A stretch of DNA of 60,494 nucleotides, filler included, from Hausera hauseri (GCA_046269625.1; 9 parts of 9 records of this genome joined end to end with filler, not necessarily neighbours in it), one strand, 5' to 3'. Numbered from the whole stretch's first letter, positions 10,461 through 50,867 are shown. Notes: generated by a model from the sequence alone, not told the origin. A program made the numbers and translations.

Positions 10461-11570
10461 TGACAGGGAAACGTTATGTAAATAGCATGGATACTAACTC
10501 GAAAACACGAGAAAACATAGCTAAACAGCCTACACCTGCCATATTAATTTCCGATACTCATGGACTAACATTTGTGAAAAAGGACATACTCACACGATGT
10601 GATGTAGTAATGTATGCCACTAATTATGAAGCATTTTTGTAACTGAAACAGAGATAAATGCCAAAACATTTAAGCTCAAGACTTAAGGTATACAAATTGA
10701 GGATTACCTAAAGTATAGAGATGACCACTTCTATTACAAAAGACAAGTCGGAATAACCGAACTATACCACAAAATGATAACGAACGATTGTAAATTAAAT
10801 TTGGAGATCATAAAAACTAAACTGGCTTTAATATATGCCAACCCCGAGCTAGCGTCACAAATAATTCAAATGAAGGAAGGTGTTCTGGCAGAATAACTGG
10901 AGAAGTTTTATAGACCTATGAATGCGAAAAGAGATGTGCCTATTAATGTTGAAGAACAGGTGCATACAAGAACTTCCGGTATTATATCAAGATATGCCGA
11001 GATTAGTGACGCCGATTACCAGAGTTCTACTGGCAAACTCAACTCAACCAGCAATTTTGAAGGATTGTAAAACGAGTTTAGGAGAACCAATGTTTAGACG
11101 TAGCGAAACGGATTGGGTAAGTTTACCAAATGAAGGTATAATCACTCCACCCATTAAGCTAACCGGAACAAACTTAATAAAAGGAATAACTGATGATAAA
11201 TTTCAAGACATCGCAGCCAAGGGTATTTACAGACGAAAAGAAGTTTAAGCATTCAGACAATTTCTGGCTTTTCCACGTCAGCGTACACAAGAACTAAACC
11301 GAGCTGTGCATACGATACTAGAGGATACGCGTTATCAAGCGAAATGGGAATCACTACTTGGCGTTAACCATTATCAGAATAAGCACAGAAATCTTGTATA
11401 AAATCTGGGAAAAATTTTTAATTTTTGGACAAGCTGCATCGGAATATTTAGCAGTTCATTTCTTAATTCAACAGGTTAAAGCAGTAATTCAAGCAATCAT
11501 AACGGTTATGAGATATTCACCCTAACAGGATTCTCGTGTAAGATTTTAATGGCTATTATCACACAATTAG
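10461..11570 (+). pseudogene. Chuvirus-like class III glycoprotein (env-like), C-terminal half
   Basis: Colinear with 47650-48780; ectodomain C-terminus and IWEKFLIFGQAASEYLAVHFLIQ..AII.GYEIF membrane region. Confidence 0.8.
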
Positions 11571-14500
11571 GAATGAAGAAAGTAGATGGAAAGCAGATGT
11601 TGAACGACATGTTGGTTATCATAATCGAAAATGTATGAGGAGACATTTAATTACAAATGCAAATTTATCAATGTCAAGGCACGAAGAAATAACTCTGACG
11701 ATGACGAGCCTAAGGGAGGAGACGTTATCTCCAAGTCGAACAGGCACAAAAATTACCCTGTTATAAAACTACCATCTACGGGATCTATCGGAAGCCGTTT
11801 AGTATAGAAGACCCTTATGAAGGAAAAAACACTGACGGGATATTGCGTCGGATCCACGAAACGGAAAGAACGTCTGCCCCACATCGTCGATCAGCAGTTG
11901 ACGATTACTGTATAATTTATTCACATAGAATACCTACACCAAACGAAAGGCAGTCAACATTTACCGGAAGCCGCAAAATACAACATCTCAAAAACCAAGA
12001 AGTCCAGCTGCCAGTTAGAAAACTGGAAATAGAAAACGCGAATGGCACGAATAACGATTTATACCACTTTGGAGAGTTAAGACAATTAATCGACCAGCCA
12101 GTTGGAACCACTAAGTTTCCATCAACGGCTACATAGTGTCCACAATACGACGTCCCAAAATAGCACCAAGTTATTACGGTACGGTAACCGAAGGAAGGCC
12201 CTTCGCAAAAATTCAATTGGAAGATAGGGAAGTTTACGAACTGATAGATACAGGATCCAAAATATCGCTGATAAAGTATGATTCAATACCGCAATTTCTA
12301 CAGAAACAATTATATCCAGCTCCCACGACAGGCCTAGGAAGTATCGGAGCTTTCAATCAATCGTCTGAAAGCAAATTCCAATGGAGACCAGAAATTCGTA
12401 TAATGGTACAATCTTTTCACCATGAGTTTTCAATAATGGAGCAACTAACGGATGATGTAGTATTGGGGTGCGATCTATTTAGACAACTACCCAACATAGC
12501 AATAGATTTCAATACAGGGAAATTGATAGAACTTGGCCCAATAAAAGGAGTTAAAACCACTACAAATAGAAAATTCGGAGATGTGTGGATTCCCTTGGAT
12601 GAAAACATACCGCCCAGAACCGAAATATTAATATATGCTCAGATACGTCAAGATGACGATCAACCAGTATATTTTGAGCCGAAGGAATCGCTTAATCCAA
12701 ACATCGTACTCAATAATGTTTTAATGAGAGTACCAACGGGACGCGTACCAATCAGGATAGCGATTAATGCACCTACTCCGATCAAACTATATGCCAATAC
12801 CACTTTGGGACACACGTATAGAGTATCATCGGTCACCATTGAAGAGAAACCTTATAAATGTATCGAATATCCACCCCACGTTGAAACTAAATTTTCCCCC
12901 GAATCATACTGCCGATTTTATGAATTACTTTGTCGTTGAAGAAGAAGAAAATATTGGCCGAACCAAAACCTTAAGACTCACGATCCCACTTAAGAAAAAG
13001 CTTGGGTCCAGCGATGAAATAGATTTAGAGGATCAAAAGATGCCAAAATGGTATCCTCTCCACACTCGTTAAGACCGGAAATAACCAAGGAGGTCAAACG
13101 AATGTTAAAAGCCAACATAATCAGACCAAGCTACCGATCTTGGTACTCACCTATACTCATGGTTAGGAAGGAAGGTACCACTTAGCACCGATTTTGTATC
13201 GACTATCGAGCGTTAAACACACTTATAATAACAGATTCCTTCCCATTACCGTCGGTAAAGGAAGCCTTGGGTAGACTTTCTAGAGCTAAATGGTTCACCA
13301 CGCTCGACATACAATCCGAATATTGGCAGGTAGAGATATAGGAAGGAGACCGTAACAAAACTGCATTTAAGGCACCCGACGGTATATACGAATTTATTGT
13401 TATGCCATTTGGAATAACTACCGGACCAGCCATCTTTATCCGCATGATGAATAAGATGCTAATGGACTAGAACACGCGTTTGGTTATCTAGATCACGTCA
13501 TGATTGCGTTGAAAATGGAAGAAGGTTATTTAAAGGATATTAAGGGTACACATGAGATTGGAGCAAGCTGGATTGAAACTAAACCCTAAAAAATGCAAAT
13601 GGGCTCAAAATGCTGTGTCTTATCTTGGACACATAGTCGGAGAAGGAGGATCAAAGCCGGATAAATCATTGCTAAATAAAATATCAAACTTCATGGAACC
13701 CCAGAATCAAAAGGAATTAAGACACTGATTTGAATTATGTGGGTATTATGATTCCTATGTGCAAGACAGTTCAAAGATAAATGCACCTTTGTACCGCTTG
13801 CTTAAAAAGGGGATGAAATGGAAGTGGACCGAGGCCGAACAGAAAGCTTTCGATGAAATGAAAAAAATTCTAACTAGTGAACGCGTTTTGAGATATCCTG
13901 ACTTCAACCTACCGTTCATAATCAAAACAGACGCTAGTAAGGAAGGCATTAAATATGAACTCGCTCAGAAACGATAAGACGAGGAGTTAGGACATCCGAT
14001 CGTATATGGAGGGCACTCCCTAAAGAAAGCCGAGAAGAACTATTCTGTAACGGAGTTCGAAACATTAGCAGTGAAGGAAGCCTTGCGACATTTTAATGTG
14101 TACGTCTATGGACAAAAGATTGTAATCGTCACCGATCACAAGGCGGTCACGACCTTGAACTGTAGAGCAAATAATCCAACCTGTAGACTCAACAGATAGA
14201 TCCAGCAGATCTCACATTATAATATTAAATTCCAATACAAGCCCGGAAATAAACATATCGACGCCGACGCATTATCGAGACTTAGAACTAAAACAAGCGA
14301 AGTTACGATAACGAAAAAAGCCCACATCGAAGACTTAGTAGAGAGACAACGGACTCTCACACTAGATAAGGCATTGAAGATTTGTGTCTAACAGAAAAAC
14401 AATAAAGTTATACAACAAATTATCGAGTTCGTTGGTATTAACAAACCACCAAAGGGTCATCAGTTACGGAAACACCTACGACGACACGGTCACAAATACA

Positions 14501-15659: not shown

Positions 15660-16905
15660 ACAAATAAAGAAAAGAAAACGTCAGCGATAGTGACTAGACC
15701 AATATCGTATGTACAAATAGTCCTTGCCTTATTGTTAATCGCTTCGTATATACCAAAAACAAGGTCGATAACCCTAACCGAAAAACTATAATATGCGGCA
15801 AGACGAAAGGATATCCAGAACTTACAGTAACTTAGAGTATACGATAAGGATTGGAGCAAACCACGGGCATGATTTGAAGCAAGTAAACCTATTCAGAGTC
15901 ATGTAAAATTTCAAATAATATTCGTAACAAGATCTACGATGAAGATATGTGATTTTCCATACGACGTTCATAGGAAATATTGTAATTTGGATTTCCGACA
16001 AACCTACCGGTACAGATTCTAAATGTTCTATTATAATTAACCCGGATCCCAAGCCTATATAATTACTCAATTCTTAATAAGAATGCCTCAACAAAATGAC
16101 ACTAATCGAGCCAAGACAGATGCGATAATCAAACATATTGACCCATTTAAAAGGCTCTTAGAATATAACATTATGGAGATTTCCAAGGACTTAAAGAACC
16201 AATGTATTCGAATTGAGACCAAAATATAGATGCCAGGAGATAGACAAATTTCTGTCCGATTTATACCACTGAACGCCTCGGTTCCTATTTCGGAGTATTG
16301 TTTCCTCGCACGACGACGGCTTACTGTGTGCTGTAGATTACAGTTAGGACAAAAATATCAGTTACAATTCGATCTGTACAACACTTGCCCTAAAGAACCG
16401 AGTACTTACTTAAGGGGGTACCGCCCAAGAATCGGAATATAAAAACATCCGTTTCCAACCACTGAGAAAACCGTCCACTGTTCCAAGTACAACTCTCACT
16501 ACTGCGATCGTCACTTCGGATAAAATGCTTGAAAAAGAAATAGGGAGCATACCGGTTAAGATTTTGGCAAGAAGTAATAAAATTCTAATTTTCGCTGAAG
16601 AAATGTTAAATCCAGACGTCACAATTAAATGTCGCACCCCGTACACCAATCAAATTATAATCCTAAGAAAGAATAGTCAGGAAACCGAATGTAAGTCATT
16701 ACGACAGCAGCATAACTATATAGTCCAAATCACCGCAAAAGGTAAAAACCCTAAAACTTTTACAGTACGAACCCTTGAAAAAAATTAAAATAATGCGGTA
16801 TAAAGAACTTAGTACTCAAAATGCGTTTACCATGAGAAGTTCTACTGAGCCCAACAATTTACCGATAATAGCTATATTTGGTTTATCAGTTTTCGTTCTT
16901 GTCAC
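15660..16905 (+). pseudogene. Putative type I membrane protein downstream of integrase (signal peptide, FN3-like beta segments, Thr-rich stalk, TM)
   Basis: IVLALLLIAS signal-like; LQLGQKYQLQFD and SLRQQHNYIVQITAKG resemble FN3 strand-F motifs; PSTVPSTTLTT; IIAIFGLSVFVLV at the contig end. Confidence 0.5.
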
Positions 16906-20148: not shown

Positions 20149-20610
20149 ATGTTAGCTAATATCAACTATCGCGGACGTGTTACCGTGTGTGACGTTAACA
20201 CACTACCTTTTAATCAATGGAATCCAAGGCAGTATGTCATCCTGTGTCCATCGGATTTTACGTGCATCGTATTTCAATCGGGAAAGTGTCGTATTATGGG
20301 TTTTCGCAAGTCAATCACAGCTGACAACAGTAAACTACTACCAATCTGAATTGTCATTGACCAAATCCAATCAATAACGGTAACGACTCAGTTAGACTAC
20401 CACCAAACAATCAATTTGTACAAATTAGCAATGGCTGCTACTGAATGTGCGTATGAACCCGAACTGTTTCCTGCACTGAGACTGACATTGTTTCGCCCAC
20501 TCTGTGTCAATCTGTTTAGGAGTGGAAAAATTGTACTAGGCATTTGGACAGTGGACTATGAACCGATTATTAATCAAATTAAAAATCACATAAATATTTT
20601 AGTGAATCAA
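20149..20610 (+). pseudogene. TBP: TATA-binding-protein-like gene (one in-frame TGA at 20347-20349)
   Basis: Two TBP half-repeats: TCIVFQSGKCRIMG, then INLYKLA...AYEPELFPALRL...VNLFRSGKIVLG; ORFs 20149 and 20416 are in the same frame. Confidence 0.8.
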
Positions 20611-20679
20611 AATAATGTACATTCTACAACAACAACAAACTATAAATACCATTCCCATGCACATTCAGACATTACTGCC

Positions 20680-21324
20680 ATGGAAGACGAAGACAACGAC
20701 AAAACAATTCTAATCAATGATGCCAATGATGAAAGTTCAGATTGGTCGTGGTTGTTTGGCTACAAAAAGGACGATTCTAATGTCAAACTGTTGAAACCAC
20801 CACCTGTCCAACAATTAGAAAATCCGGGTGATTGTCTGCAGGTCGATTGTCTGGAAACGAAACAGGAACTTGCTCAGAAAGGAACAGCAGCAAAACCGAC
20901 GTTAAAAAGGCAAAATGCAATGATTGGAATTCGTAAACGAAAATCAAAACCACCGGCGTCGCGCCAAACACAGATATTTTTAACCAAACGAATTTTTCGC
21001 AAGTACGAAATGCATTTTCTGCAAACGCCCGTACTGATTTCATTGAATGATCCCGTGTCTCTATGTGCACCCAAGTACAACTATCGTGTAAAATGGTTTT
21101 CGGGTGAAAATTTGGATAAACTTTCTGATGCTTTACATCAATTAAACGTGGATTTAACGTTGAACGAAACGACCGTGCAACAGCAATCTGTCAATTTACC
21201 AGGGCAGAAATGTCGCGAAATGTCTCATGTACCCGATAGCGATGATAATTTAAAGTGTCGACTGAATATTGAATTACAAGGATACAAAGAAAAGCCGGTA
21301 TCAAAAGCCCGATTTAGCGTGTAG
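20680..21324 (+). CDS. Hypothetical Polinton accessory protein (acidic N-terminus, basic RKRK stretch)
   Basis: Uninterrupted frame from MEDEDNDK to KARFSV*; currently read in frame with the TBP-like region. Confidence 0.45.
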   Translation: MEDEDNDKTILINDANDESSDWSWLFGYKKDDSNVKLLKPPPVQQLENPGDCLQVDCLETKQELAQKGTAAKPTLKRQNAMIGIRKRKSKPPASRQTQIFLTKRIFRKYEMHFLQTPVLISLNDPVSLCAPKYNYRVKWFSGENLDKLSDALHQLNVDLTLNETTVQQQSVNLPGQKCREMSHVPDSDDNLKCRLNIELQGYKEKPVSKARFSV

Positions 21325-21399
21325 CTGAAGTACATTTTAATTATCAATAAATTTTGTTGTTTTACCGTTCTTCTTCTTCTTCTTATTGGCATAACAATA

Positions 21400-21876
21400 A
21401 TGATAATGAATTATGTAAAGATTATATTAAAAGACGAAAATGTCTTTGTAACGAGACGTGTCACAGCAAACAATGCAGGATACGATGTGTTTTCCAATGT
21501 CAATACGACAATTCCGGACAGCACAATCAAATGCACAACGACTGTGATTCGATTGGCGATTCCACCCTGTTACTACGACCAACTTTTATCAAAAAGCGGA
21601 CCGGCAAAGCTCGGACTGACGGTTGTGGGTGGTGTCATTTATTCAGACTTTCGTGGTGAAGTTAAGGTGTTGCTGGAAAACCAATCCGGCGAACCGTATG
21701 CTTTTTCGAAAGACAGTGCAATCGCACAAATCGTTTTTCTTCACTGTGAAGAGGCGGAATTCAGTGTAACGTCACCGGAACAATGGGGACTGCGTTATGT
21801 CAATGAATCGACAACAAAACGAAATGAACCCAAAGAATTTGGCTTTGGTGATATGGACAAAACCATCTATGTTTAA
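21400..21876 (+). CDS. dut: Trimeric dUTPase, probably inactivated
   Basis: Motif 1 AGYDV, motif 2 KSG, motif 3 GVIYSDFRGE (Asp replaced by Tyr), motif 4 IAQIV, motif 5 degenerate R..KEFGFG. Confidence 0.85.
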   Translation: MIMNYVKIILKDENVFVTRRVTANNAGYDVFSNVNTTIPDSTIKCTTTVIRLAIPPCYYDQLLSKSGPAKLGLTVVGGVIYSDFRGEVKVLLENQSGEPYAFSKDSAIAQIVFLHCEEAEFSVTSPEQWGLRYVNESTTKRNEPKEFGFGDMDKTIYV

Positions 21877-22599: not shown

Positions 22600-23350
22600 T
22601 TGTATTCAGAACATCTGTAGGTTGACAAGTGTTTTTTACGTTTTGGCTGGGAAAACGATTTAAAATATCGTACGTTATTATTGATGACTGCCAAAACTGT
22701 CGCTAAATTAAGCAGGCCTAATTGATCCAAAAGATAAATACCAATTACCGGTAAACTCCTCATCGATCTTGGGCATTTGAAAGAACAATAACAACATACA
22801 TAGTCATGCTTAGCACAAGAGATAAAGCGACACTCAAGCGATCTCTAGTGTCTTCGAGCGTAAATATTAAACATGCCAATCCAGAGAGCATTGAGAATGG
22901 AATGAGTACGAGAACGACAAAATAAAGTGGTTGTATACTGAGATGAATACTAACTCTTATGTATTGATAAGACGTGTTCAAATCGCTGGTATATCGTTTT
23001 CTTCTGAAGTGCACAGCCATGATTTCCCATTCACTGACATCGGAATTTGGAAGGAAACTGTTGTCAACAGCAGACCCTAACTGATAAGGATGAATCAACA
23101 TTTGGCTGTCAGTACTCTACCAAGGCGTTATAACCAGGTAACACGTTTGAAAGTCAAATGGGAAAAAGGTAACATTTAATGTGCATGTAGTATCTAAAAC
23201 TGCTCCATAAAGCCACGTTATTCGACCATTAAATTCAACAGATATCCGAGACTGTGCTACCGTGCTGAAGTCAAAGTTTTTGCTATTTTTAACATTCATT
23301 ATTCCGATATCGAGCAACCACATGTCTTGTGCGTAACGCTTCACCAATTT
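22600..23350 (-). pseudogene. Cys-loop ligand-gated ion channel (nAChR-like) fragment, intronless, with stop and frameshift
   Basis: MWLLDIGIMN, Cys-loop CTLNVTFFPFDFQTC, SEWEI, QPLYFVVLVLIP (M1), DRLSVALSLVLSMTMYVVIV (M2), LPVIGIYLL (M3). Confidence 0.92.
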
Positions 23351-23383
23351 GAATAATGTTATGTTGAACAATTGTTTTTGATT

Positions 23384-23480
23384 TATGCGTCCGACGCGTC
23401 TGCAACGGAAAACCCGGCCGTGCCCAACCGAATGCGCCGGAGGGCTAACGATTGACGCGGGCACCAGATCACCCCCCCCC
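23384..23480 (-). repeat. Polypurine tract plus ~82-bp GC-rich LTR 5' end
   Basis: GGGGGGGGG-TGATC-TGGTGCCCGCGTC...; a homologous copy lies at 53267-53348 on +. Confidence 0.6.
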
Positions 23481-26400
23481 GTCGCAAAGTTAGAACTATA
23501 AAGAATAAAAGAAAGAGAAAAAGTGGAAAACGAAAAGTGTGTGTTAACTGAGCTTAGTGTGTATAAGGTGTTGAATAACTTCGACTGATTTTTCCTTACT
23601 ATATTGGCTGAATGTGACTCTGCGTGTTGTGTGTTTGTGCAGTGTGTTTGTTTGCAGAGATTGAGGTCGGGAAAAAAATTGGTAGATTTTGGTGTAGGCG
23701 TTGTGTCGTGCGAAGATGAAGAAGAAGGTGAAGAAGGAAGAGAGATTGTTGAAGATGGAATGATAAAGGTATTGAAAAGAGTGTTAGAAGACAAAGGAGT
23801 GATGAAAGGTGTAGTGGTGGATAAAGGAAGAGAAGAAAAATTGGAATAGAGATTGGAATTTTGTTGAGTAAAAGAGTGGAAGAAAATGATACAGAAGTAG
23901 TGGTAGAGATAGGAAGAGTGGTAGGAATAGAAGGAGGAAGTGTATGAAATGATGGAGCAAGACTAGGCGCGGAAAAGGAAGATGGAAGTGGTATAGTAAT
24001 AGATGTAAGGATAGAAGGGAGTGGAGGAGTAAGAAAAGAAGTTGGCGTGTCAGGTGGTAAGGTGTCGTCTACAAAGAATGCTGGCTTTAGGTTGGTGATG
24101 TGTACTGTGAAGTCTTTACCGTCTTTGGACATGATGGCGTTATGCTAATATAGTTGTAACAGTTTGTAGGGCCCCAGGTACCGTGACTAGAAACCGCAAG
24201 GGGCTTGATTCTTCAGCCATACGAATTTAGCCGTGTTCAAATCCTCAGGTAAGTATGTTTTATCTTTGTGAAGTATCCTGCAAAACGAACCCCTGGTGAC
24301 CTCGACGGTGATTTTGCGCCGCCCGTATCGTCTCATCTGTGGGAGTGGTGTCCAGGGCAGTTAGTTCGAATAATGAGCGGTCAGGAGCTCCGAATAAGGC
24401 TTCAGTAGGTGAGCATCCTGTAGAAGCGGACGGAGTGTTCCGCCAGCCAAGCAGAACGAAAGAAAGAAGATTGGTCCAACTACTGTTGTACTCTGCGCGA
24501 ATTTTTAGTGACGTTTTCAATGTACGGGGGAAACGTTCTAGGAGGCCATTCGATTGGGGATAATAAGGCGTAGTATAAATGCAATGAATCCCCAATCGGT
24601 TAACAAGAAATTTGAACAGATTGGATTCAAATTGTGGACCCTGGTCCGTGATGATGAAGCGAGGTGATCCAAACCTGCTAATCCATGTGCGAATGAAAAT
24701 GTCAGCTATGGTATCGATGTTCTTGCTCCGCAGAGGGACGACTTCTGGCCATCGCGAGGAACGGTCCATCATGGTGAGAATGAATTGATGTCCGTTGTCT
24801 GGAGGAAGAGAGCCAACAATGTCGATATGTACGGACTCGAAACGCGATATGCAGGAGAAGTGGAACAGTGGTGGCTTTAAAAGCTTAGTTGTTTTGTATT
24901 TTTGGCAAGTCACACACTCCGTAACCCATTCCTTAACATCAAAACGCATTGATGGCCATATTGTCGTTGGAGTAAACGAAAAGTGGCTTTAGCACCAGTG
25001 TGGTGTAGCGAATTTACGCTATTTAATGCTTACCTTTGCAATGATGGTGCGAGAATTATTACGGAATGACCTGGCTTGGAAGTGTCTAAAGCCACGCCGT
25101 CAACAATTGTGCAAGACTTGAAAGAATTAAGCATGTCTTGAGGTGGCTGGTTGTGTTGAAGTTGAGCTTGCGTAAAAATCGGTGAAAAATTAATCGAACT
25201 AACCGGCCTAGATAAAAAATCGGCAACTAAATTATTAACCCCATTAATATGTTTTATGTTGAAGTTAAATGTCGATAAGTATGATATCTGTCGTTCTTGG
25301 TGTGTGGAAGGATGTTTCATAGCTATGATGTTAAGTAAGGGTTTGTGATCGGTTTATATAGTAAAATTGCGAGCAACAAGTAGGTGTGAGAAATGCTTTA
25401 AAGCAAGAACGATAGCCAATAACTCTCGATCGAACGTTGAATATCTGGTTTCAGGGGATGTTAGCTTGCGAGAGAAAAATTCTAGCGGTTGATTTTTTCC
25501 TTTGTGGATTTGGTGAAGCACAGCACCTACTGCAGTGGTTAAAGCGTCTGTGGTAAGAATGAGTTCCGCATCAGACTTGGGGAAAGAAAGAATGTCGACG
25601 GTCTTAATTCCTTCGCGTATCTTATCAAATTTTTCAGCCAATTCAGGTGTCCACTGGATTGGCTGATGTTTTTTTCCACCGCTTAAGTGTTCAAATGATG
25701 CTGTCAATTCGGAGCAGTATGGTACATATTCATGTACAAAGTATTGTGTACCAAGAAAGTTGCGCATTTAGGTGGTCGTACGTGGTAACTGGATATTTTT
25801 AAGGGCTTCAACTCGGTCTGGTTGAGGAGAGTGGCCACCTGATGAAATAACGTGGCCTAAAAGTTGATGCATTTTTTGAAGAAATGGAATTTGTTGAAAT
25901 TGGCTTGGAGATTATGGTGGTTAAGGCGTTGGAATATTGCGAGATGTTCCTCGTGTTGTTTGGCTGAAGACGAAGCGATCAGAATATCATCAATGTAAGG
26001 GTGCGCAAATGGGAAATCTGACAGAATCGAATCAATATGTCGCTGAAAGGTCTGTGCGGCGTTTCGCAAACCGAAAGGTATAAACGGGTACGCGTAGAGA
26101 CCAAAAGGACTATTGTCAGCGGTTTTTTCAAAATCTTCGGGTGCCACTGACATTTTGTTGTATACTTTGACCAAATCGATGGTCGAATAAATGGTAGTTG
26201 AATTAAGGCGATGCAAGATATCCTTGATGAGTGGTATGGGGTAGACATCCATGATGACCAAGTTGTTAAACTTTCGGTAGTCACCACATGGTCTAAAAGT
26301 ACAGTCCTTTTTTGTACAACGTGTAAAGGTGACGACAAAGGAGATTTGAAACGGCGTACAGTGCCGGAGCGTTCTAGTTCCAGAATTTCGGCTTCTACGG

Positions 26401-28212
26401 CCTGTCTACGACGAGGTGACATTGGTCGTACCTTTTGACGTATTGGTCGTTGATGCTGTGTAATTATGTGATGTACACTGCTGTTTGTAGAGGTAAAAGC
26501 ACGATTTTTTTTAAGTACGCGTGGACATGATGTGGTAACGAATTGCTGTAAAGTTGTAGGCAACTGTGATAGATTCGGTGGTGATGGTGAAACAGCTTGA
26601 GTAGTACCGGATGCGATTTGTGACTTGTTTAGTGATCTGCAGTCAAGTGATATTTGATGTAAGATGGTCAAATTGAAAATGGTGTTGGATGAAGTGATTT
26701 CGTCGAGTAAATGAACATTGGTGACAGTACCACAATTATCGACATCGAACCTTGATCGAATATCAATATTATTATTTAAAAATTTACGAATTGAATTATT
26801 GTTGTGGAAATTCGAATTATTCATTGATTTTCCCAAAATTGACCTCCGTGTCCCGATCGACTGCACGGTAGTCGAAATGCTATTGACATGCTCAGTAATG
26901 CTGACAGTGATTCCGCTCCTCAGACATTGTTGACTGCCGTCAACCAATAAATTATAATGTGATAGGAAGTTGGACCCTAGTATTGCCGTTTGGACGTCCA
27001 ATGGAAAGGTGAAGGAAATTTTGGTAACATAAAGGATCATTTAGCCGTGCCAGAAATGTGCAGCGGTTGACCTGAAACGGTGTATAAGGGTTTAATTCTG
27101 AGTGGTGAATTTTGTACAGGAAAAGATTATAGTAATAAGGAAATCGCTGCACCTGTATCAATGAGGAAATCAACAGATTGCGTCGTAGGAGCGGTGATTG
27201 CAGCCATTAGAGTAAAGACAGCAAAAGAGGCGTGTCGGCATTCAGAAAGTGAAGTAGTGCCTTTGGCAGAGTTTGCCGTGACTTCTGGCGACAAATTCAG
27301 TTCTTTTGAAAAGGTGAACTAGGACGAGTATTAGAAGAAAAGGTAGTACGTCCGTCGTTTGTATCTGGTTTGAAAGTGCAGCCTGGAATGCATTTATGGG
27401 CTTGATTTTTAAACTTTGCGTAGTAAATGCAACAAAGGTGTCTGAAGAAAAACTTTTGTTGTAAAATTTGCACCCTAGGCAGAATTTCTTGGCATTCTTA
27501 TTGAATCTGCTATGATAATAGCAAATTGACGACCGCGCAGGCGATTATAACCAGTTTCTATATGCAGAATGGGCGCGGTCAGCGACAAAATCCCTTCGGT
27601 GGGACAAAGAAAATTCATTTAATTTGTTGTTTATATTATTAATTGTTGCGTGTAGTGCGGTATTTTCAGCACGTAACTGATTGAATTGTTGTTTTATTGA
27701 TATATTATTGTTTTGGATACCGGTAGTGATAACTGCTGCCGAAACAACTGGTGGGGAATTTAAGTGCAGAACATTGTGTGTTATTAGGCTAATTCGGCCA
27801 ATTTATCGAGGGCCGTGGAGTCCTCCACCACGGTAAGTAGGGTCCGGATTTGGATGGGTAACGCGTTAAAAAAGTAATGACGCAGTAGTTCGGAATTGTG
27901 TTCTTTAGTGACGCCGAGTGTGCAGATGTGCCAAAGACGTACGTAACAGTCTGAAGGTCGTTGTGTGCCTATAGCATTGTCGTGGAAGAAGCGTTGTATG
28001 ATCGTGTCCATTGAGGGTTCTGTGATTTTAAGAACAACGTTGGAGAGCTGTGAGTATGGGTCAGGAAGTTTAAATATTTCAAGAATGTTGTGAATTCGTA
28101 TTTTAATGTTGTTAGGGAGTAAGAAGAGGAAATTGTGCGCCTTGGGTAAGTGTCGGTGATATTGTTTGCCTGTAGCCTCAGTTGATTGAATTGCAACCAA
28201 ATTTTGGGCACC
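23384..28212 (-). mobile_element. Family A Gypsy copy A3: partial gag through IN, S/T/P tail, PPT and start of 3' LTR
   Basis: Same motifs as 4800-9200 with intact FLIDTGAAIS; G9 polypurine tract at 23472-23480 followed by TG-initiated GC-rich sequence. Confidence 0.92.
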
Positions 28213-28735
28213 ACATCCATTCCTTCCCACTGTAGTCTGCCTGTCTCTCTAACTTGCTTACAATTCCGGCGTTCTAGGTTCATTGGAATTGGTAGGGTCG
28301 TTGGCTTGATTATGGATAAATATCCGTGAATTAGTCCACAATGCAAGATACTGAGAAATCGTCACAACATGCATTCTATACCATCTATTAAGACTAACTC
28401 TCGTTGCTGATACAGAACGTAGCTTTTCTCTTTGTTTCTAATTTATGCGGTCTCGCATCCTCGCACATTTCTAAATCCATCAATAAATACTTTTGGCCAA
28501 GTTTGAATTTGTCACAGTCATACATTATAACCGCTCCCATTTGTCTTATTAACATAATAGCAGTTAGGAAATTAATTACCCAGTTTGATTCGTTTCCCTG
28601 ATTATTTCCGGTTAATTTTCGTAAAATATCTTCACCTCTACTATTACTATTGCTAGAAAAGGGCCTATTTTGATGTTCTTCTTCTTTTTCAAATAATTTG
28701 GACCAGTTTACTTCTCGGGGCAATTTCCTGGCAGC
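28213..28735 (-). mobile_element. Family B fragment B2: N-terminus of the chuvirus-like glycoprotein
   Basis: PREVNWSKLF..NWVINFLTAIMLIRQMGAVIMYDCDKFK..LMDLEMC, HCGLIHGY; homologous to 46840-47330. Confidence 0.85.
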
Positions 28736-39716: not shown

Positions 39717-40959
39717 TTTACGGGTATAGTGCGCCACCGGGGACACGGTCGCAAACGAAATCCCTGCGCTGTAAAGGTTGATCTGTCCAGTTAGGATGGT
39801 ATCTGGGGCATTGGATCTGGATATTACCATGAATATTTGATCAGTTAATTTGGAGAACGATAAGTCATTTCCTATTGTTCGTATATTAGCTGGTTTAGCA
39901 AATGGTCTTTTAGGTTTCAGTACCTTGTTTGTAGACTCAACGAGTAAAAAAGTGAATTTGTAATACTTAATTGCATTAAGTATACTGGGAGATATTGAAT
40001 GTAGTGATTGGGGTACTCTTTTACAACGTATAACAAAATAGAAAGGTAAGAAATTATCCGACCTTTTTTTACATCCTAAGTCCAGTGTTTGTAGAGCCTG
40101 GGATCACTGTAATTATTCGTTCGAAGTCAGTATGCGAATGTCGTTGACGGTTTTGCCGTTCATCTTTTGCTTTAGCGAGATTGGCATCCGTAGAATTGCC
40201 TTGAGCTTTCAAATACAAGTCGGGTCTGTAACGCAATTCGTTCCTAGCATTATTTACTTTATACTGATTGTCTGGGAATTTTGTGTGGCGATATACAGAT
40301 AATCCTTCGGTTCGTTTTTTTTGCCAATAGTGATTCAATGGGTATACTTACAAGGTAAGTTATAAGACCTTTCTTGTGTTTCCAATCTTTGAATATGGAA
40401 GACACTGTTTTGCTCCTGGAATCATTATTAGCCACAATGTCGTAGAGATCTGTCCACGATTCTAGCAGATTGTTATCTTGTATGTTTGGTAAGTTATCGG
40501 ATTTTTTAACCGATGAAAAGTATTTTCGATACATGCAGCTGTGGATCGTGATTTCGAAACCTTCGGCTTAACTGCGACATTCTCGTTCTTTTCTGACTCG
40601 TTGGGCAAAAGACAAGGTCTGCAATAAGTACAATATAAGAATCTCAATTTTTTGTAAAGTGCACGTGCATACGATACCAGCTATCCGCGCGAATTCTTTA
40701 AAATTATTTATGTTATACAGATCCAAATCGAGCAAACGGAAAACTCTCAATGAGATGAAATTGGGATATTCCTAGGGTAAAGGACGTTTGAACGACCTGG
40801 CGAAGGGTTCGTAATCTATTTTGTAGGCATCATAATATAAACGAACAGGATCATAACTGTTCATATTTAGTTTGAGCGTCGGCGGGTGTGTTGTTTAATA
40901 ACTGGGTGCAATATAAACGCTTTTGAAAACTTAACGATGTTTCCAATTCTTCTCGATCA

Positions 40960-42000
40960 AGCCGTGTTGCATCTCCGTGAAATTCATTCAAGTCAAGAGG
41001 CCGCATTTTTGTCGCGTAGGCTCCAACAGCCTGTGGCGGGTAGTCCCATAGCTCCTTCAGTAGTTTCAATAAGTCGGCCTGTTCGATTTCGATTTCTGAA
41101 CCGTAATCGATTAATTTCACACGAATAGGTTCCGCTTTTTTCGCAGTCTTTTGAAGAAGTTTAACACATTCAAAAACGTCTTTGGATTGGCATGCGGCGA
41201 TAAGTACGAGTTGAATAAATTTGGCATTAACACCATGGACTTTATGGCGATGGCTAGAATAGTTGTTTCTCTTTAATTTGATCTGTATATAATCGCATTT
41301 GAATGTCTCAGTAGAAACCTCTACGGAATGATTAAGAACACGGATGTAGAAATGACTGGGATTGTCAAAGTATAAAATCAGAAATTCGATGTACCCCTTA
41401 TTCGGAAGGACAGCTATATCAACTTCCAGTTGGAGAATATAACGTCCATGACACGATGGTAAAATACATTCACCATTCGCTTTTAGTCGTAGACATATTT
41501 CATCCATATCCTTTGAGAGTAGAAAGTCGACTGCTTTGTCGTATAGTCCATCTGGCCTCTCACGGTCACATCGACTTAGAACCGAGCGTAAATAATAAGC
41601 ATTCTTTGGACTGAATTCATTCGGATTTAAAAAGATGTGGGAATGACAATGAGATGTCTCTTTAGTTTTGGGTTTAGATGCTGGTAAGAATGGAAATTCA
41701 GAAAATCTGTCTCTCAGGAAATTTAATTGTCGACCCAATGTTTCTTTTGTAACATCGACGTGAAGCAATGTATGTGCATTATATATCGATTTCGCAGTTT
41801 GTGTAGGAGCCTCGTCCGAAATTAAAAGAACGGGTATTTTAACGCATCCTTGATATTGATTCCACTCGTCAACAACACCGAACTCAGGTGCGCTATGGGC
41901 ACCGAGCATTATCTTCAACGCGTACGATACTTTATGACTGAGATATTTTTGTGTTCATTATTTCTTTGTCATCATTGGCCAATATGATCGGCCTTTTTAT
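40960..42000 (-). pseudogene. TDRD12: TDRD12/Yb-family fragment: end of helicase-like region, Cys/His linker, extended Tudor
   Basis: VLLISDE..NAHTLLHVD..LGRQLNFLRDRF; ICLRLKANGEC..C.GR..LPNKGYIEFLI..PSHFYIRV; VKLIDYG..LLKL..YPPQAV..MRPLD. Confidence 0.72.
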
Positions 42001-43760: not shown

Positions 43761-46029
43761 TTTTCGTACTAATAAAATCACGATTGCAAAAAATAACTAT
43801 TATTGGAAGTTACAGAGAAAACCATAAATATATTCATTGAACTATAGACGGAGTTCCGTCATATAGTTCCAAGAAAAATAAAAATTTAAATATATAATTT
43901 TTCACGATACAACTTGACATATAAATACATATCCTTGGTTAGAATCGAAAAATATACCATACATTACTCTGAAATTATTGCATATTTGATTTCTTNNNNN
44001 NNNNNNNNNNNNNNNNNNNNNNNNNNNNNNNNNNNNNNNTTAATTAATTAANNNNNNNNNNNNNNNNNNNNNNNNNNNNNNNNNNNNNNNNNNNNGTGTC
44101 CCCAGAAATATTATTAAGACGGAAACAGGAATTATAATCATGGATTAAAAGCGGAGTAAAATTTGCAGAAGGATGGAAAAAAATGAAGATAGAGTCGACG
44201 TAAAAGTCACTAAGGCTCAGATGCTACTGACTACTTTAGAGGCAAACCCCAAATTGAAGAGAGTAGTCCGTAATTTAGAACGTATGATGGACGAAATTCG
44301 GTACGCAATGATTAAACGGCTTAAGGAAAAACCGTTTAACCATCGAAGTAATATTGATTTAGAAATATTGGATATAGATCCGTTGGATATTCCTCCTTTG
44401 ACGGAGATGATAAAAATCGCATTTGCTACGCCCAAACAATATACAAACCTAGAAGATCGACTTAAAATAGAAAACGAAAAGCGAGCACAGATTTATAGCT
44501 TGAGGAATTGAATTATGTCCCCAAATCACGAGGAGGCTCAGTATGTAGTTAAGGCTTGTATCGTAGAGTTGGACGAGTACAAGGACGAGTTTAGTTATGT
44601 CGGCCGGATTATGAATTTCCTAAGAGGACCAGACGATGAGTTAAGAGGTGCATATAAGATGTTAGATAGTGCTATAATGGCAAAACCAATCATCGCAAAT
44701 CAATTATCGGAATGGTCCGAATAAGTAGTGCGATGAAGCACATTGGCAGAAGACCGCAAAACGGAATTTCCGCAAAGCGAGCCAACGGTAAAGAAACAAT
44801 TAGAAGAAAGTGCACATGACCTAGGCACAATGCGGATAGAAGTAGATATCCGTACTCAATTTGAAGCGCTACAACGACTAAAATTTATGGAAAAGGAACG
44901 TGAAGCGTTGATGATGGAGAAAATCTACAAACTGATCGAAGAGACAAACTTTACGGAAAAACGGAATATGATTTACGATGTAAATTCAAAGTTAAGGATT
45001 GTCCGCCTAGAAGGGATCCAACACTTAACGGGGAAACCGATTGCCGAAATTTTTGTACAAGACATTGAAATCTTAGACATTTGTCCAGGACATCGAGAAA
45101 TGCTAACAGACGTCATAAAATTCTTACATAAACCACAAGAATGGATGGCCGGATCGGATCAGAATTTTCATACCATATTTACGAAAATAAGCAACGACCC
45201 ACATTTTAGTTTTCAGGAATATAAGTTTGCAAAGAAATTGTTGGATGCAATTGACCCTGACTCAAAGGTTATAAATGAGATGCATGAGTTAGCCTATTTA
45301 TTGGTGGATATGGTAGAAATCAGTGATGAGAAGATGATGCAATTGATGCCCAAGATACAGAATGTAGAAGAAACATGTACTAAAACGAAACAAAGAGCGA
45401 CAAGGTTAGATTAAATAATAAAAGAGCTTGAAATCTATCAAAACAAATATGCTTTTACCCAATCAGAGATTAAGAATAAACGAGAATATGTAAAAAGATG
45501 ACAAAGGGATGTGATTCTTCAATTGACAGATTATCACCAGAAGGGGCCGATTAACCCGAACGAATTGGGTGAATTACTGAAAATGATTCAGTATGCTTGT
45601 GAAAACGGAGTAGGTTTCCGAACTACGCAGATGAAGGAAATACAACCAAGATTGAAAGAAGTTAGGGAAAATGTACAGAAAGCAAAAACAATTGGGATAG
45701 ACACTGGACTTCCATAGGTCAGTAACGAGCCGGAATGGGATGCATACTTCGACGAAATGCTGACCGAAAAGCCTATGACTCCAGTACAATTGAATGAGAT
45801 AGAACCATGTCCGCAAAACAGAATATTCAACGTGGAGATGCTACTGGATTCAGCGCTAACTGAAAAGGATTTGATTGAATTAATTAACGTAAATATTACA
45901 AAAAATAAATTACGACAACTTATTCCAACTTTAACTAAATTGTCCTGTAAGAACACGATTTATAGGACGGTGCCGAAACTTTTGATAAGGAAATATGCTA
46001 AAATTTTAAGGACTAAACCTGAGACAGCG

Positions 46030-46248
46030 ATGAAAGTGATGGTATCATCTGAGTAGATAGACGAAAAAGAATGTGAGTTGACCACATATTCCTATGTAAA
46101 AGACGTGCGAGAATGGTTATTGAATAATGGCGGAACAAATGAGCTAAATTATAGATTCTACTTTAGAGGCAAAATACTCGACGACCTAGAGCAACTAATA
46201 GATGTAGGAGTTATCCCTGCCGAAACAAACCGAATAGTAGCAATAATA
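46030..46248 (+). other. Ubiquitin-like domain without C-terminal GG (family B)
   Basis: MKVMVSS..ECEL..YVKDVREWL...YRFYFRGKILDDLEQLIDVGV..RIVAII parallels ubiquitin [21 protein letters not shown]. Confidence 0.7.
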
Positions 46249-46965
46249 GCTAACGAACAGACAAATGAAGAAGCCACACGTAAGGTTAAAGCAGAACAAT
46301 GCGTAGGACAAATTATGGGAGTTCGAGATGCTGCAATGTATTTTGAGTACTTACAAACGGACAAAGATAAGAAACAATACGACATAAATTTAGTTCCACT
46401 GAGTGGAACAGCCACTAAGGGTCCAAGACTGAAATGCCCAGTAGGCAGACCTAGAAAAGTGCGAGAAGAAGTGGATTACAATGGATAGTTAATTAGAGAA
46501 TTAAGACAGATGTCAATTCCGACTCTTAGTCCAGATAACAAAGAATTAAGCGAGTTAATGAAAAAATTAATACGAATTGTAAATTATTCCAGTTTCCGAG
46601 GGGACGTATTAGAAGATAAAGAAAAGATAAATTTCGATGCAGCCAAAATGATACGAAGTTCACGTTTCAAATTATCGAAAGGTAACTTAACTGAAGAATC
46701 GGTAATCGAGAATACCATGGTGGAGAACACCAACGGAGAGTTGAGAAAAGTGTTATTATATTTAACTATGAAGATAAATCCTAATCGACAGAACAAAATT
46801 AATAGGGCTATAAGCTTAGCACTGAAAGCAGAAAGAAGAATGCCTGGAGAAGTAAATTGGGCAAGACTGTTTTATAAGGAAGAGGACAAAAGAAACAACA
46901 ATAAACTCGACGATATGTTACGTAACCTGATAACGTCAGACGTTGCAGGTCGAAAGAATGAATCA

Positions 46966-48780
46966 AACTGGCTAATTAGCTTGCTCACTTTAATGACGCT
47001 AATAAAGCATATAGGCGCTGTAACCGTCTATGATTGCGACAAGTTTAAATATTCCTTGATGGATCTGGAAATATGCGAAGATGCTAGACTGCACAAACTG
47101 GAAACGAGGGAGAAAAGTTACTTCCTGTATCAGCAACAAGAATTGGTATCGTTAGATGAAATGGAGTGCATGCTGAGACGATCGCATAGTATTTTTCACT
47201 GTGGACTAGTACACGGATACTGCTTTATAATCAAACCAACTACTCCTCTAATTCCGATGAATTTAGAGCGTCAACATTGTAAACGAGGTAATGAAACCGG
47301 AAGAATACAATGGGACAGGATGCAATTGGAAATGCAACCCGGAAAATTAATCAGAGAATACAAAGTAGTAGCTGAAAGGCTGGATATGCATAGCGGACAT
47401 TGAAGTGGAGCAGAATACGATACCGGTAGAGGATTAGAATCAAATGTAATAGTTGTGGATTTCTACGAATCAAAAATGCGATCACAGAAGGTAATGTTCC
47501 ATACTGTCACAAAGCTATACACTGAGAATCAGAAATGTCATTTACAAGACGGGACCTGTGCTTTTAGGAGTTCGATTATAATATGGGAACCTCCTTCTGG
47601 AAGAAATTGGTACTTTATTAAAATTAAAAAACTAAAGTTCAATAAAACTACAGGAAGGGGATATGTGGACAAATCGGAAACTAATTCGAAGCACTTGAGG
47701 ATGTGTCAGAACACTCTACACCTACTATTCTAATTTCGGATCAGCATGGATTGAAATTTGTTAAAAAATAGGTGATGTCTCGCTGTGATGTAGTGATGTT
47801 TGCTACGAATTATCAAGCGCTTTCCTAGCGGAAACAGAAATAAACGCCAAAACTTATAAGTTAGAAACACAGGATGTACGTATCAAAGATTACCGGAAAA
47901 ATAGAGATGATTTCTTCTACTATAAAGGACAAATTGGAATAACGAAATTATATCACAAAATGATAATGAATGACTGCAAATTGGATACTGAAATCATAAA
48001 AACTAAAATGGCGCTTATATATGCAAACCCAGAATTGGCCTCTCTAATAATTCATATGAGAGAAGGAATTTTCGGTCGGGTAACAGGCGAAGTATTGCTA
48101 ACCTATGAATGCGAAAAGAGAGAGGTGCCCATCAACATGGAAGAAAAAGGTTGCATTCAGGAGCTTCCTGTCATTTATCAAAATATTCCAATGGTAGCTA
48201 CAACGTTGACAAGGGTGTTACTGGATAACGTTACCCAACCGACTATCCTTAAGAATTGTAAGGCATGCTTAGGAGAACCTATGTTTAGGCGTAGTGAAAC
48301 AGACTGGGTTAGTTTGCCAAATGGAGGCATCACTGTAGCTCCAAATAAATTAACAGGGACGAATCTTGCAAAATGAATTACAGACGATAAATTTCAAGAC
48401 ACCTCGTCAAAATGTATATACAGGCCGAAGAAAATTAAGGCTTTCAGACAATTCCTTGCCTTTCCACGACAACGAACACATGAGTTAAATCGAGCTATGG
48501 CGTCTATAGTAGACGATACACGATATCAGGCTAAATGGGAATCATTACTCAGCGTAAACCACTATCAGAGAGTAACAACAGAAATGCTCTACAAAATTTG
48601 GGGAAAATTTTTGATTTTCGGACAAGCCGCACTCGGATTCTTAGCGATATATTTTCTGATACAAATGATTAAGGCAGTCATCCAAGCAGTAATAAATGGG
48701 TACGAAATATTTACATTAACCGGATTTTTATGTAAAATACTGACTGCGATCATAACGCCTTTTGGAAAATTCTTGAATGC
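46966..48780 (+). pseudogene. Chuvirus-like (class III, gB-type) glycoprotein: signal, ectodomain, membrane region
   Basis: WLISLLTLMTLIKHIGA|VTVYDC..SLMDLEIC, C..RRS..HCGLVH, TGEVLLTYEC, CIQELPV.Y, TRVL, WGKFLIFGQAALGFLAIYFLIQMIKAVIQAVINGY. Confidence 0.85.
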
Positions 48781-50867
48781 ATAAGAAGAAAATGTATGAA
48801 AATCGGACGAAGAACGCCATGTTGGCTACTATAATCGTAAACGAAGAGGAAGGCCTATATTCTTGCGAAAGCGAAAACTTACAAAACCGAATTCAGGAAG
48901 AAATAATTCAGATGATGACGAACCTAAGGGAGGAGAAGTACCTAGGAATAAATAGACATAAGACGTACTCTGTCGTTAAAGCGCCATTGCCAATGCTACC
49001 ACCTACCGCTCCATTTTACGAAGATTTTGATAAACAATCCATGAGCTCATATCAGACGGCAATCTATAAAAGAACAATTGATGTAGAAGATCCTTATGGG
49101 GGGACAAAACGTTACGGAATTCTACGGAAAATATGCTACCGACAATCCACAGATGATCCCAGGATATTGTACTCACTGAGGGAACCTTGGAATATAGAAA
49201 CTAGATCAATGATTTGGGACAATCCAAGGTTAAAAACTTTCAAGAATACTGAATTATATATTAATAATCGAGAACCATTAATCAGTACACATGAAGCGGA
49301 AGAAGTACGCATAAAAAACAACGAATTATACCCAAACGAAGAATTAAGACAATTATTAGAGAATATAATATCCTCTCCCGAAATCCGAATTAATGGACAC
49401 AAGATATCGGCGGCGAAACGCTCAAAGGATACACCGAACTGTTTCGAAACAGTAATAGAAGGGAGACCCTTTGCCAAAATCATTATTGAAGATAGGGAAG
49501 TTTATGCCTTAATCGATACAGGATCGGAAATGTCTTACATTAAAAATGATTCAATACCACAAACTCTAAGAGGACAATTATACCCTCCATCCGCAAAAGA
49601 CCCAGAAAGTACGGGAGTTTTTGGCCAAATGTCGAAACCATTGTTTAAATGGAACCCGGAAGTTCTATTAGTTGGACAAATTTTCCGGCATGAATTTGCG
49701 GTTATGGAGCAATTAACCGGTGACGTAGTTTTAGGATGTGATTTACTAAAGAGACTACCAAATATAGCAGTCGACCTACAAACAGGGAAGTTAATAGAAA
49801 TCAGACCAAATAAAGGCGTGAAAAACGCTAAGGACAGAAAATTTGGAGAAGTGTGGATACCAGTTGACAAAAACATTCCACCGAGAACAGAAATAATAAT
49901 TTATTCCCAGATACAGCAAGATGACGATCAACCGGTGTATTTTGAGCCAAAAGATACGTTAGATCCGAATATATTACTCAGCAACGTATTAAGAAGAGTA
50001 CACTCCGGTCGAGTACCAGTCAGAATAGCTAATAACGCGCAAAGTCCCGTTAAGCTCCATGATTATACTACTTTAGGAGACACGTATAGAGTATCGTCAA
50101 TAAATATTGAAGAAAAGCCTTATATGTATGCCGAATTTCCACCTCATGTCGAAACTAAGTTTTTACCTGAGTCTTATTGTCCATTCTGCGAATTGCTATG
50201 CCGATATAAATCGATTATTGCTAAAGACGAAGGAGATATCGGTAGAGCAAAAGCATTAAAACTGACTATTCCGCTTAAGAAAAAGCCTGGTTCGAATGAC
50301 GAAATAGACTTGGAAGACCAAAAGATGCCAAAATGGTATCCGCTGCCGCATTCATTAAGCCCGAGATAACAAAGGAAGTTGAACGAATGCTTAAAGCCGA
50401 TATAATCAGACCTAGTTATAGATCTTGGTATTCACCGATCCTCATAGTTAAGAAGAAAGGAACTACGAAACATCGATTTTGTATTGATTACAGAGCCTTA
50501 AATAATCTTATGATGAAGGATTCTTTCCCGGTACCGTCGGTCAGAGAGGCGTTAGACCTACTCTCAGGACCGAAATGGTTTACCACTCTAGATTTGCAAT
50601 CCGGACATTGGCAAGTGGAGATAGAGGACGAAGACCGCTATAAAACGGCATTCAAAACTTATGATGGCGTTTATGAATTTAATATTATGACGTTCGGTAT
50701 TACTACCGGACCAGCCATATTTACAAGAATGATGAACAAAATGTTAATGGGATTGGATCATGCTTTTNNNNNNNNNNNNNNNNNNNNNNNNNNNNNNNNN
50801 NNNNNNNNNNNTTAATTAATTAANNNNNNNNNNNNNNNNNNNNNNNNNNNNNNNNNNNNNNNNNNNN

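What the first reader, a model, noticed from the sequence alone, without database searches (positions are those of the whole stretch)
46966..50767. Gypsy-like retroelement with a chuvirus-type fusogen upstream of, and fused to, Pol (Env-Pol polyprotein)
Seen: the order is signal peptide, class III glycoprotein, TM, ~230-aa tail, protease, RT in two independent copies (B3 and B1); a third copy confirms the glycoprotein N-terminus. In B3 the tail is continuous with PR (48777-50369) and is offset from the TM by one base (TTG-A-ATG). In B1 the TM reads in frame into the tail (IITQLGMKKVDGKQMLNDMLVIII versus IITPFGKFL/MHKKKMYENRTKNAMLATII), so the ancestral state looks like one ORF. Established: env genes of retroviruses and errantiviruses lie 3' of pol as separate ORFs, and chuvirus-like glycoproteins are known to be captured by LTR elements. 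Inference: Pol is tethered to the cytoplasmic tail of the fusogen and packaged through it. This would be a distinct enveloped-retroelement architecture and is the best candidate for an undescribed system here.
Basis: partly seen in the sequence, partly recalled or inferred. Interest (0 to 1): 0.92.

Follow-up and report, generated by a model that had tools for sequence, protein, structure and literature searches.

The report
Decayed Burro-like enveloped retroelement copies
These are broken copies of a retrovirus-like jumping gene with a viral membrane-fusion gene in front of its replication enzymes, likely once read as one long protein; the layout is real but has already been published for the planarian Burro elements.

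Summary
The domain order is real: signal-like stretch, Monjiviricetes-type (gB-like) glycoprotein, membrane anchor, tail, protease, RT in copy B3; copy B1 adds RNase H and integrase. Codon-position substitutions show the tail begins in the glycoprotein's own frame; B3's frame change lies about 55 codons later. One ancestral ORF is still well supported. The copies break at different places, related contigs lack the first post-anchor stop, and 8 of 156 database relatives carry glycoprotein, protease and RT in one protein. The architecture is not undescribed: a 2019 review reports env in frame between gag and pol in planarian Burro elements (PMC6431247), and a 2026 paper lists GAG-ENV-POL elements in three phyla (PMC13524379). 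Pol staying cytosolic and tethered to the fusogen tail is inferred, not shown. The extra found here is a second predicted membrane protein after integrase with a fibronectin-III fold. I did not find it in print, but two key papers were unreadable. This scan already noted both the layout and the second membrane protein on other DNA. New member of a known kind.

The parts
44096..46968 (+). B3: long decayed coding region in frame with the glycoprotein signal stretch (gag-side accessory region; the record starts inside it; no capsid or zinc knuckle found)
   Evidence: 9 stops in 953 codons against 77 and 116 in the other frames; no Pfam family above cut-off; its last part reads into the signal stretch without a stop in B3 and in copy 3
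46021..46290 (+). B3: ubiquitin/SUMO-like domain (weak)
   Evidence: Pfam ubiquitin E 0.11; a profile from five stretches of four relatives has its best hit in the window here, iE 0.014; hhalign E 5e-4; phmmer to P0152 iE 3e-5
46969..47019 (+). B3: predicted internal signal sequence before the glycoprotein
   Evidence: Hydrophobic 15-mer, followed by the A-[YF]-D-C-type start seen in relatives
46975..48769 (+). B3: Monjiviricetes-type (gB-like, class III) fusion glycoprotein, broken by 2 stops and 2 frame changes
   Evidence: PF24664 E 2e-8 and 2.4e-37; a profile of 32 relatives hits only herpesvirus gB in the PDB, 30 of 30 rows, best E 0.004
48626..48757 (+). B3: membrane anchor (48626-48682) and a second hydrophobic stretch (48707-48757)
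   Evidence: Hydropathy scan; the same two-part pattern in 13 relatives
48758..49460 (+). B3: tail/linker. First about 60 codons in the glycoprotein frame (2 stops), frame change at 48939-48949, then the protease frame
   Evidence: Codon-position test against B1; related contigs differ at the first stop and in length at 48941-48943
49461..49757 (+). B3: retroviral-type aspartyl protease (DTG)
   Evidence: PF00077 E 5.2e-7
49830..50105 (+). B3: conserved domain between protease and RT, at the place where Burro has a dUTPase-like domain
   Evidence: Aligns with five relatives and B1; homology to dUTPase not shown here (hhalign E 0.13)
50354..50767 (+). B3: N-terminal part of RT, cut by the record end
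   Evidence: PF00078 E 3.4e-19; 44-53% identical to RTs of seven glycoprotein-Pol relatives, 31-34% to two other Gypsy RTs of the window
10496..11572 (+). B1: C-terminal half of the glycoprotein, decayed
   Evidence: 60-63% identical to B3; PF24664
11573..15665 (+). B1: tail, protease, RT, RNase H, integrase (H2C2 + core), decayed; no frame change at the place where B3 changes frame in the tail
   Evidence: Pfam; translation and alignment; tblastn with P0001
15708..15752 (+). B1: second predicted signal sequence, in the frame of the integrase C-terminal region
   Evidence: Hydrophobic 15-mer; this frame has 12 stops in 398 codons against 27 and 29
15756..16785 (+). B1: ectodomain-like region with up to three repeats; the last (16531-16785) has a fibronectin type III fold
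   Evidence: AlphaFold2 mean pLDDT 85.3; VIA-align best Z 10.6, rmsd 1.9, 82 aligned, to fibronectin type III domains; the first two repeats are assigned by motif alignment only
28200..28735 (-). Third copy: end of the upstream region, signal stretch and glycoprotein N-terminus, then a junction with an unrelated Gypsy element
   Evidence: tblastn 60-63%; translation; codon-position pattern

Best explanation
These are decayed copies of a high-copy Ty3/gypsy-type retroelement with a gB-like fusogen upstream of Pol, which likely encoded one Burro-like polyprotein (gag-side region, fusogen, protease-RT-RNase H-integrase, second membrane protein) predicted to cross the ER membrane so that Pol stays cytosolic on the fusogen's tail. 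Shown: domain order, frame continuity around the anchor, whole-protein relatives with the same order, and the fibronectin-III fold of one post-integrase repeat (as a confident model). Inferred steps: (1) the internal signal sequence sends the glycoprotein into the ER lumen and signal peptidase frees its N-terminus; (2) the first hydrophobic stretch is the only membrane-spanning anchor, and the second lies on the cytosolic face; (3) tail, protease, RT, RNase H and integrase are cytosolic and held at the membrane until the element's protease cuts them free; (4) a second signal sequence after integrase exports the fibronectin-III ectodomain, which relatives anchor by a C-terminal membrane span; (5) capsid, enzymes and both surface proteins therefore gather on one membrane and would bud as an enveloped particle. 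My odds: single ancestral ORF 0.9; Pol cytosolic 0.85; Pol packaged mainly through the fusogen tail 0.4. The copies in the window cannot do any of this: they are dead.
For: Domain order. Third-position excess in the glycoprotein frame after the anchor, then in the protease frame. B3 and B1 break at different places in the tail. In run X1, 41 contigs carrying 98% of the summed depth read a sense codon at B3's first post-anchor stop, as do 5 contigs in X2; length differences are listed at 48941-48943, where the frame change was inferred independently. 9 of the 10 best database hits carry an aspartyl protease after the glycoprotein in the same protein. Of 156 proteins held, 18 have protease after the glycoprotein and 8 of these also RT. 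P0001 (2,627 aa, on a 9,084-base contig) runs zinc knuckle, glycoprotein, protease, RT, RNase H, integrase, second signal, second anchor. B3/B1 RTs group with five of these relatives at 99/99 support. In 13 of 13 relatives the first hydrophobic stretch scores better as a membrane span than the second, and in 6 of 6 relatives scanned the best 19-mer between anchor and the end of integrase (or of the protein) scores 5.0 or worse (scale values recalled). 5 of 5 relatives that extend past integrase have a second signal-like stretch there, which fits an in-out alternation with Pol inside. Published precedent: PMC6431247 section 7, PMC13524379.
Against: No intact copy, LTR, primer site or Gag lies in the window, and no genome is held. 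In B3 itself the second hydrophobic stretch scores as well as the first (0.8 against 1.8), so two spans are not excluded by sequence. The second post-anchor stop (48797-48799) was not among the 40 of 1,355 difference rows shown; only B1 shows that it is not shared. Most relatives are gene predictions whose DNA I could not see, so some could be joined across introns. A BCL2-like domain, which precedes env in Burro, was not detected in B3. X1 may be the sample that the window came from. Nothing here shows particles, fusion or processing.
Confidence: 0.8

Rival explanations
1. One polyprotein as above, but the protease cuts Pol off the fusogen tail early, and Pol enters particles by binding Gag or RNA; the fusion is only an economy of gene expression.
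For: Relatives carry one to seven protease-like domains right after the anchor, and the tail is poorly conserved in length and sequence, as expected of a cleavable linker. Early autoprocessing is common in polyproteins (established knowledge).
Against: Retroviral-type proteases work as dimers and are usually activated by crowding at assembly (established knowledge), which favours late cleavage. No data here on timing.
Confidence: 0.35
2. Glycoprotein and Pol are separate reading units, linked by read-through, frameshift or splicing, as the stops and frame change in B3's tail might suggest.
For: B3 has two stops 5 codons apart just after the anchor and a frame change 50 codons later. PMC13524379 speaks of 'ORFs arranged as GAG-ENV-POL' and allowed gaps between ENV and POL.
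Against: The breaks are not shared by B1 or by most related contigs. Relatives have no stop at the matching place. B3 has 13 stops along its path, so two here are ordinary decay.
Confidence: 0.07
3. The glycoprotein belongs to a separate viral insertion or element that happens to lie upstream of an env-less Gypsy pol.
For: Chuvirus-like glycoproteins occur as free endogenous pieces: 134 of 156 hits have no protease or RT match. Copy 3 does abut an unrelated element.
Against: The same order and spacing in two copies that are about 75% alike, continuous selection across the junction, even coverage of the whole record by related contigs (30 of 30 bins), and whole-protein relatives.
Confidence: 0.02

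Closest known systems
Burro / GYPSM1 giant gypsy-like LTR retrotransposons of planarians (Arkhipova and Yushenova 2019, PMC6431247, section 7 read in full)
   Same: One long polyprotein; env in frame between the gag side and pol; env matching fusion glycoproteins of mononegaviruses; a ubiquitin/SUMO-like domain upstream of env (weak here); a conserved domain between protease and RT; decayed copies with stops and frameshifts are mentioned there too.
   Different: BCL2-like, BIR, MATH and ankyrin domains were not detected in the window's copies (weak BCL2-like and ankyrin matches occur in relatives P0006, P0002, P0154). Size, LTRs and Gag cannot be seen. The review does not mention a second membrane protein after integrase. 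No Burro sequence was available for a direct comparison.
GAG-ENV-POL HSV/gB-type 'ancient errantiviruses' of Platyhelminthes, Bryozoa and Nematoda (Chary and Hayashi 2026, PMC13524379; abstract, passages, parts of sections 5 and 6, supplement rows seen)
   Same: Ty3/gypsy pol with a gB-type env placed before it. By eye, the six planarian ENV rows in its supplement share the cysteine and motif pattern of B3/B1 and of my best database hits.
   Different: That study kept intact copies only and treats GAG, ENV and POL as ORFs without discussing a fused polyprotein or topology in the passages I saw ('polyprotein', 'fused', 'fibronectin': 0 occurrences).
NERV nematode endogenous retroviruses (Sacco et al. 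2022, doi 10.1099/jgv.0.001739; not held; title and one sentence seen in PMC13524379)
   Same: Metavirus-type RT with a captured RNA-virus glycoprotein and flipped ENV/POL order. I recall a continuous gag-env-pro-pol ORF; that is from memory.
   Different: Nematode hosts; relationship to this family not tested.
Anakin, mosquito BEL/Pao elements with a chuvirus glycoprotein (Dezordi et al. 2020; search listing and one sentence in PMC12440569 seen)
   Same: Same glycoprotein family (PF24664).
   Different: BEL/Pao backbone with the glycoprotein after pol (recalled; P0053 with DUF5641 before the glycoprotein looks like this type). Here the pol domains are Gypsy-type and follow the glycoprotein.

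Membership tests
Ty3/gypsy (Metaviridae) | Pol order protease-RT-RNase H-integrase with Gypsy-type domains | tested here: met
   B1: RVP, RVT_1, RT_RNaseH, Integrase_H2C2, rve in this order; no BEL-type Pfam family
Ty3/gypsy (Metaviridae) | LTRs, primer-binding site, target-site duplication | not testable with these tools
   All three copies are cut by record ends or junctions; no genome is held
Ty3/gypsy (Metaviridae) | Gag with capsid and CCHC knuckle at the N-terminus | tested here: inconclusive
   None in the 953 codons held upstream in B3, but the record starts inside the frame; present in relatives P0001, P0008, P0009, P0010, P0029
Burro-like elements | Env in frame upstream of pol in one polyprotein | tested here: met
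   Codon-position test, unshared breaks and whole-protein relatives; shown for the family, not by an intact copy in the window
Burro-like elements | Env related to fusion glycoproteins of mononegavirus-like viruses | tested here: met
   PF24664 above cut-off in both halves
Burro-like elements | Ubi2/SUMO-like domain upstream of env | tested here: inconclusive
   Weak but position-consistent matches at 46021-46290
Burro-like elements | BCL2-like domain directly before env | tested here: inconclusive
   No match in B3 by Pfam, Atlas, a three-sequence profile or hhalign; these searches are shallow; weak Bcl-2 match in relatives P0006 (E 0.00096) and P0002 (E 0.2)
Burro-like elements | dUTPase-like domain between protease and RT | tested here: inconclusive
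   A conserved domain is there; hhalign to the window's own dUTPase gives only E 0.13
Burro-like elements | RT groups with Burro1/GYPSM1; element of about 30 kb; planarian host | not testable with these tools
   No Burro sequence was returned by any tool; the tree has no named reference; host not determined
GAG-ENV-POL HSV/gB-type errantiviruses | gB-type ectodomain between a signal/membrane stretch and an anchor, upstream of Ty3/gypsy pol | tested here: met
   the gB link rests on weak PDB profile hits (best E 0.004) and on Pfam, not on a fold of this glycoprotein
Anakin (BEL/Pao) | BEL/Pao pol with the glycoprotein downstream (definition recalled) | tested here: not met
   Glycoprotein precedes protease; Gypsy-type domains

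The most novel reading that the evidence does not exclude
These elements build a two-protein entry machine from one polyprotein: a class III fusogen before Pol and a fibronectin-III attachment or receptor-mimic protein after integrase, with the enzymes strung between the two membrane anchors so that Pol is packaged by membrane tethering rather than as Gag-Pol. The post-integrase fibronectin-III protein was not found in print (paper searches; text searches), but Grohme 2018 and Sacco 2022 could not be read.
Probability: 0.3. Interest if true: 0.65.

Novelty: new member of a known kind. Interest (0 to 1): 0.3.

Why it matters
The layout itself is published, so this finding adds a family member, not a new system. 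What would matter is the mechanism. If Pol really is packaged as the cytosolic tail of a fusogen, and a second fibronectin-III surface protein does the attachment, then these invertebrate retroelements assemble more like membrane-threaded polyprotein viruses than like retroviruses. That is untested for Burro-like elements as far as my searches reach, and it cannot be tested on these dead copies.

Tried and rejected
No whole genome is held, so LTRs and full-length copies could not be sought. The word-index protein search with the glycoprotein half found nothing among proteins of 581-2,000 aa (weak by the tool's own note). A second such search, with the tail-protease region, could not be made because the database was switched off. 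A single-sequence PDB search with the glycoprotein half gave no hit. The Atlas gave no usable hit for the region before the signal stretch and only weak hits under 0.9 for the post-integrase repeat. A single-sequence fold of B1 15756-16410 was unusable (mean pLDDT 40.6). Pfam did not recognise the repeats. Foldseek searches of the PDB and viral libraries never ran because the machine was busy. No RNA holder was listed. Grohme 2018 and Sacco 2022 are not held; their figures and supplements may already show membrane spans or the second protein, and the figures of the two papers I did read are not held either. I did not fold the glycoprotein and did not run complex prediction, as no binding claim is made.

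Full report
What the window is. The window is nine records joined by spacers of N around an all-frame stop. The finding lies in record B3 (44096-50767). Record B1 (10461-16905) holds a second copy, and 28735-28200 (minus strand) a fragment of a third. No whole genome is held. B3 and B1 are about 70-77% alike in DNA over the shared parts and 76% in RT, so they are diverged relatives, not alleles.

Domain order. With stops read as X in single frames, Pfam finds in B3 the Monjiviricetes fusion glycoprotein PF24664 (E 2e-8 and 2.4e-37), a retroviral protease (E 5e-7) and RT (E 3e-19). B1 has the glycoprotein's C-terminal half, protease, RT, RNase H, integrase zinc finger and integrase core. A profile of 32 glycoprotein relatives hits only herpesvirus gB in the PDB (30 of 30 rows, best E 0.004). 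That agrees with class III but is weak alone; I did not fold the glycoprotein.

The junction. The substitution pattern says otherwise. So B3 runs from the anchor into the tail in one frame, through two stops, and changes frame at 48939-48949. B1 has a deletion just after the anchor, which throws its anchor into the non-selected frame, but it does not change frame where B3 does. Each copy is broken where the other is not. Related contigs agree. 17,859 contigs of run X1 and 1,209 of X2 were laid at 85% likeness or more and covered 30 of 30 bins. At B3's first post-anchor stop, 41 X1 contigs with 98% of the summed depth and 5 X2 contigs read a sense codon, and length differences are listed at 48941-48943. 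Only 40 of 1,355 difference rows were shown, the second stop was not among them, and X1 may be the source sample. B3 has 13 stops and four frame changes on its whole path, so these breaks are ordinary decay.

Whole relatives. An HMMER search of 1.84 billion representatives with the glycoprotein's C-terminal half gave 362 hits at E 0.001 or better, 150 listed. I scanned 20 of them, chosen for rank or length: 9 of the best 10 carry a protease after the glycoprotein in the same protein. Over all 156 proteins held (150 hits and 6 cluster members), 153 matched the glycoprotein, 18 have a protease after it, 8 of these also RT, 1 has RT before it, and 134 have neither. P0001 runs zinc knuckle, signal stretch, glycoprotein, anchor, protease, RT, RNase H, integrase, second signal stretch and second anchor in 2,627 residues on a 9,084-base contig. 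The others are predictions whose DNA I could not inspect. In an RT tree of 14 rows, B3 and B1 fall with five such relatives at 99/99 and apart from the window's five env-less Gypsy RTs; the tree has no named reference and a midpoint root.

Upstream and downstream. The frame continues at least 953 codons upstream of the signal stretch (9 stops against 77 and 116), and copy 3 also reads from this region into the signal stretch without a stop. It holds a weak ubiquitin-like domain shared with relatives. A BCL2-like domain was not detected in B3, though weak matches lie at this place in P0006 and P0002. After integrase, B1 has a second signal-like stretch and up to three repeats. An alignment of these with four relatives gave weak PDB hits, 4 of 7 to proteins that I recall as fibronectin-III proteins. 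The last repeat folds with mean pLDDT 85.3 and matches fibronectin type III domains at Z up to 10.6, rmsd 1.9, 82 residues aligned; nearly all of the 50 rows shown are of this fold. A shared fold shows no function.

Topology and mechanism. Two hydrophobic stretches follow the ectodomain. In 13 of 13 relatives (two pairs are near-copies) the first scores as the better span, and the second usually holds a basic residue and a proline; in B3 the two score alike (simple sums with recalled scale values, no topology predictor). No comparable stretch lies between anchor and integrase in six relatives, and a second signal sequence after integrase only makes sense if integrase is cytosolic. I therefore infer one span and cytosolic Pol (0.85). 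Pol would then be made as the tail of the fusogen and freed by its protease. Whether it stays attached until budding (0.4) or is cut off early is open.

What is known. [quoted passage not shown] PMC13524379 (abstract, passages, section 5 part 1, section 6 part 2, rows of two supplement tables; preprint passages) reports GAG-ENV-POL gB-type elements in Nematoda, Bryozoa and Platyhelminthes, nine of them from flatworms. By eye its planarian ENV rows resemble B3/B1. Sacco 2022 and Grohme 2018 were not held; what I say of a continuous ORF in Sacco 2022 is recalled. PMC12440569 (passages) and PMC9289625 (one passage) add only context. Searches and text searches found no report of a fibronectin-III protein after integrase. 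Earlier notes of this scan on other genomes reached the Burro reading and a second membrane protein; I had both readings before those calls, and they are not independent support.

Verdict. Observation partly confirmed, interpretation partly supported. It works like a Burro-type enveloped retroelement; strict membership in Burro could not be tested. New member of a known kind, interest 0.3. The two-glycoprotein, membrane-tethered Pol model is the bold reading: probability 0.3, interest 0.65 if true.

Noticed in passing
window 15708-16785 (+), copy B1: Second predicted membrane protein after integrase; the last repeat folds as fibronectin type III. B1 shows no anchor or such ending.
   Followed up: yes
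P0002, P0004, P0008, P0154: Relatives carry several aspartyl-protease-like domains in one polyprotein: 3, 3, 4 and 7 by the profile, some after integrase. P0154 also has ankyrin and C2H2 matches.
   Followed up: no
P0001: This 2,627-aa retroelement polyprotein is filed in NCBI as a hypothetical protein of a Flavobacteriaceae metagenome-assembled genome; likely eukaryotic contamination of the bin.
   Followed up: no
window 46440-46470 (+): An AT-hook-like G-R-P-R-K motif upstream of the glycoprotein; similar motifs lie upstream of the glycoprotein in P0004, P0005, P0008 and P0154 (motif name recalled).
   Followed up: no
window 3810-4472 (+) and 23120-23962 (-): Cellular domains downstream of integrase regions of env-less Gypsy elements: Glycos_transf_4 (E 8e-6, just under cut-off) and a neurotransmitter-gated channel ligand-binding piece (E 2e-12) (5 of 29 ORFs hit).
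   Followed up: no
window 20350-21873 (+) and 40854-41954 (-): A TBP-like domain followed in frame, after one stop, by a dUTPase; and a Tudor domain upstream of a Gypsy pol.
   Followed up: no
window 1-60494: The window is not contiguous DNA but nine records joined by N-TTAATTAATTAA-N spacers; neighbours across spacers are unrelated.
   Followed up: yes
window about 28200 (-): Copy 3 stops about 125 codons into the glycoprotein and abuts the gag region of an unrelated Gypsy element.
   Followed up: partly
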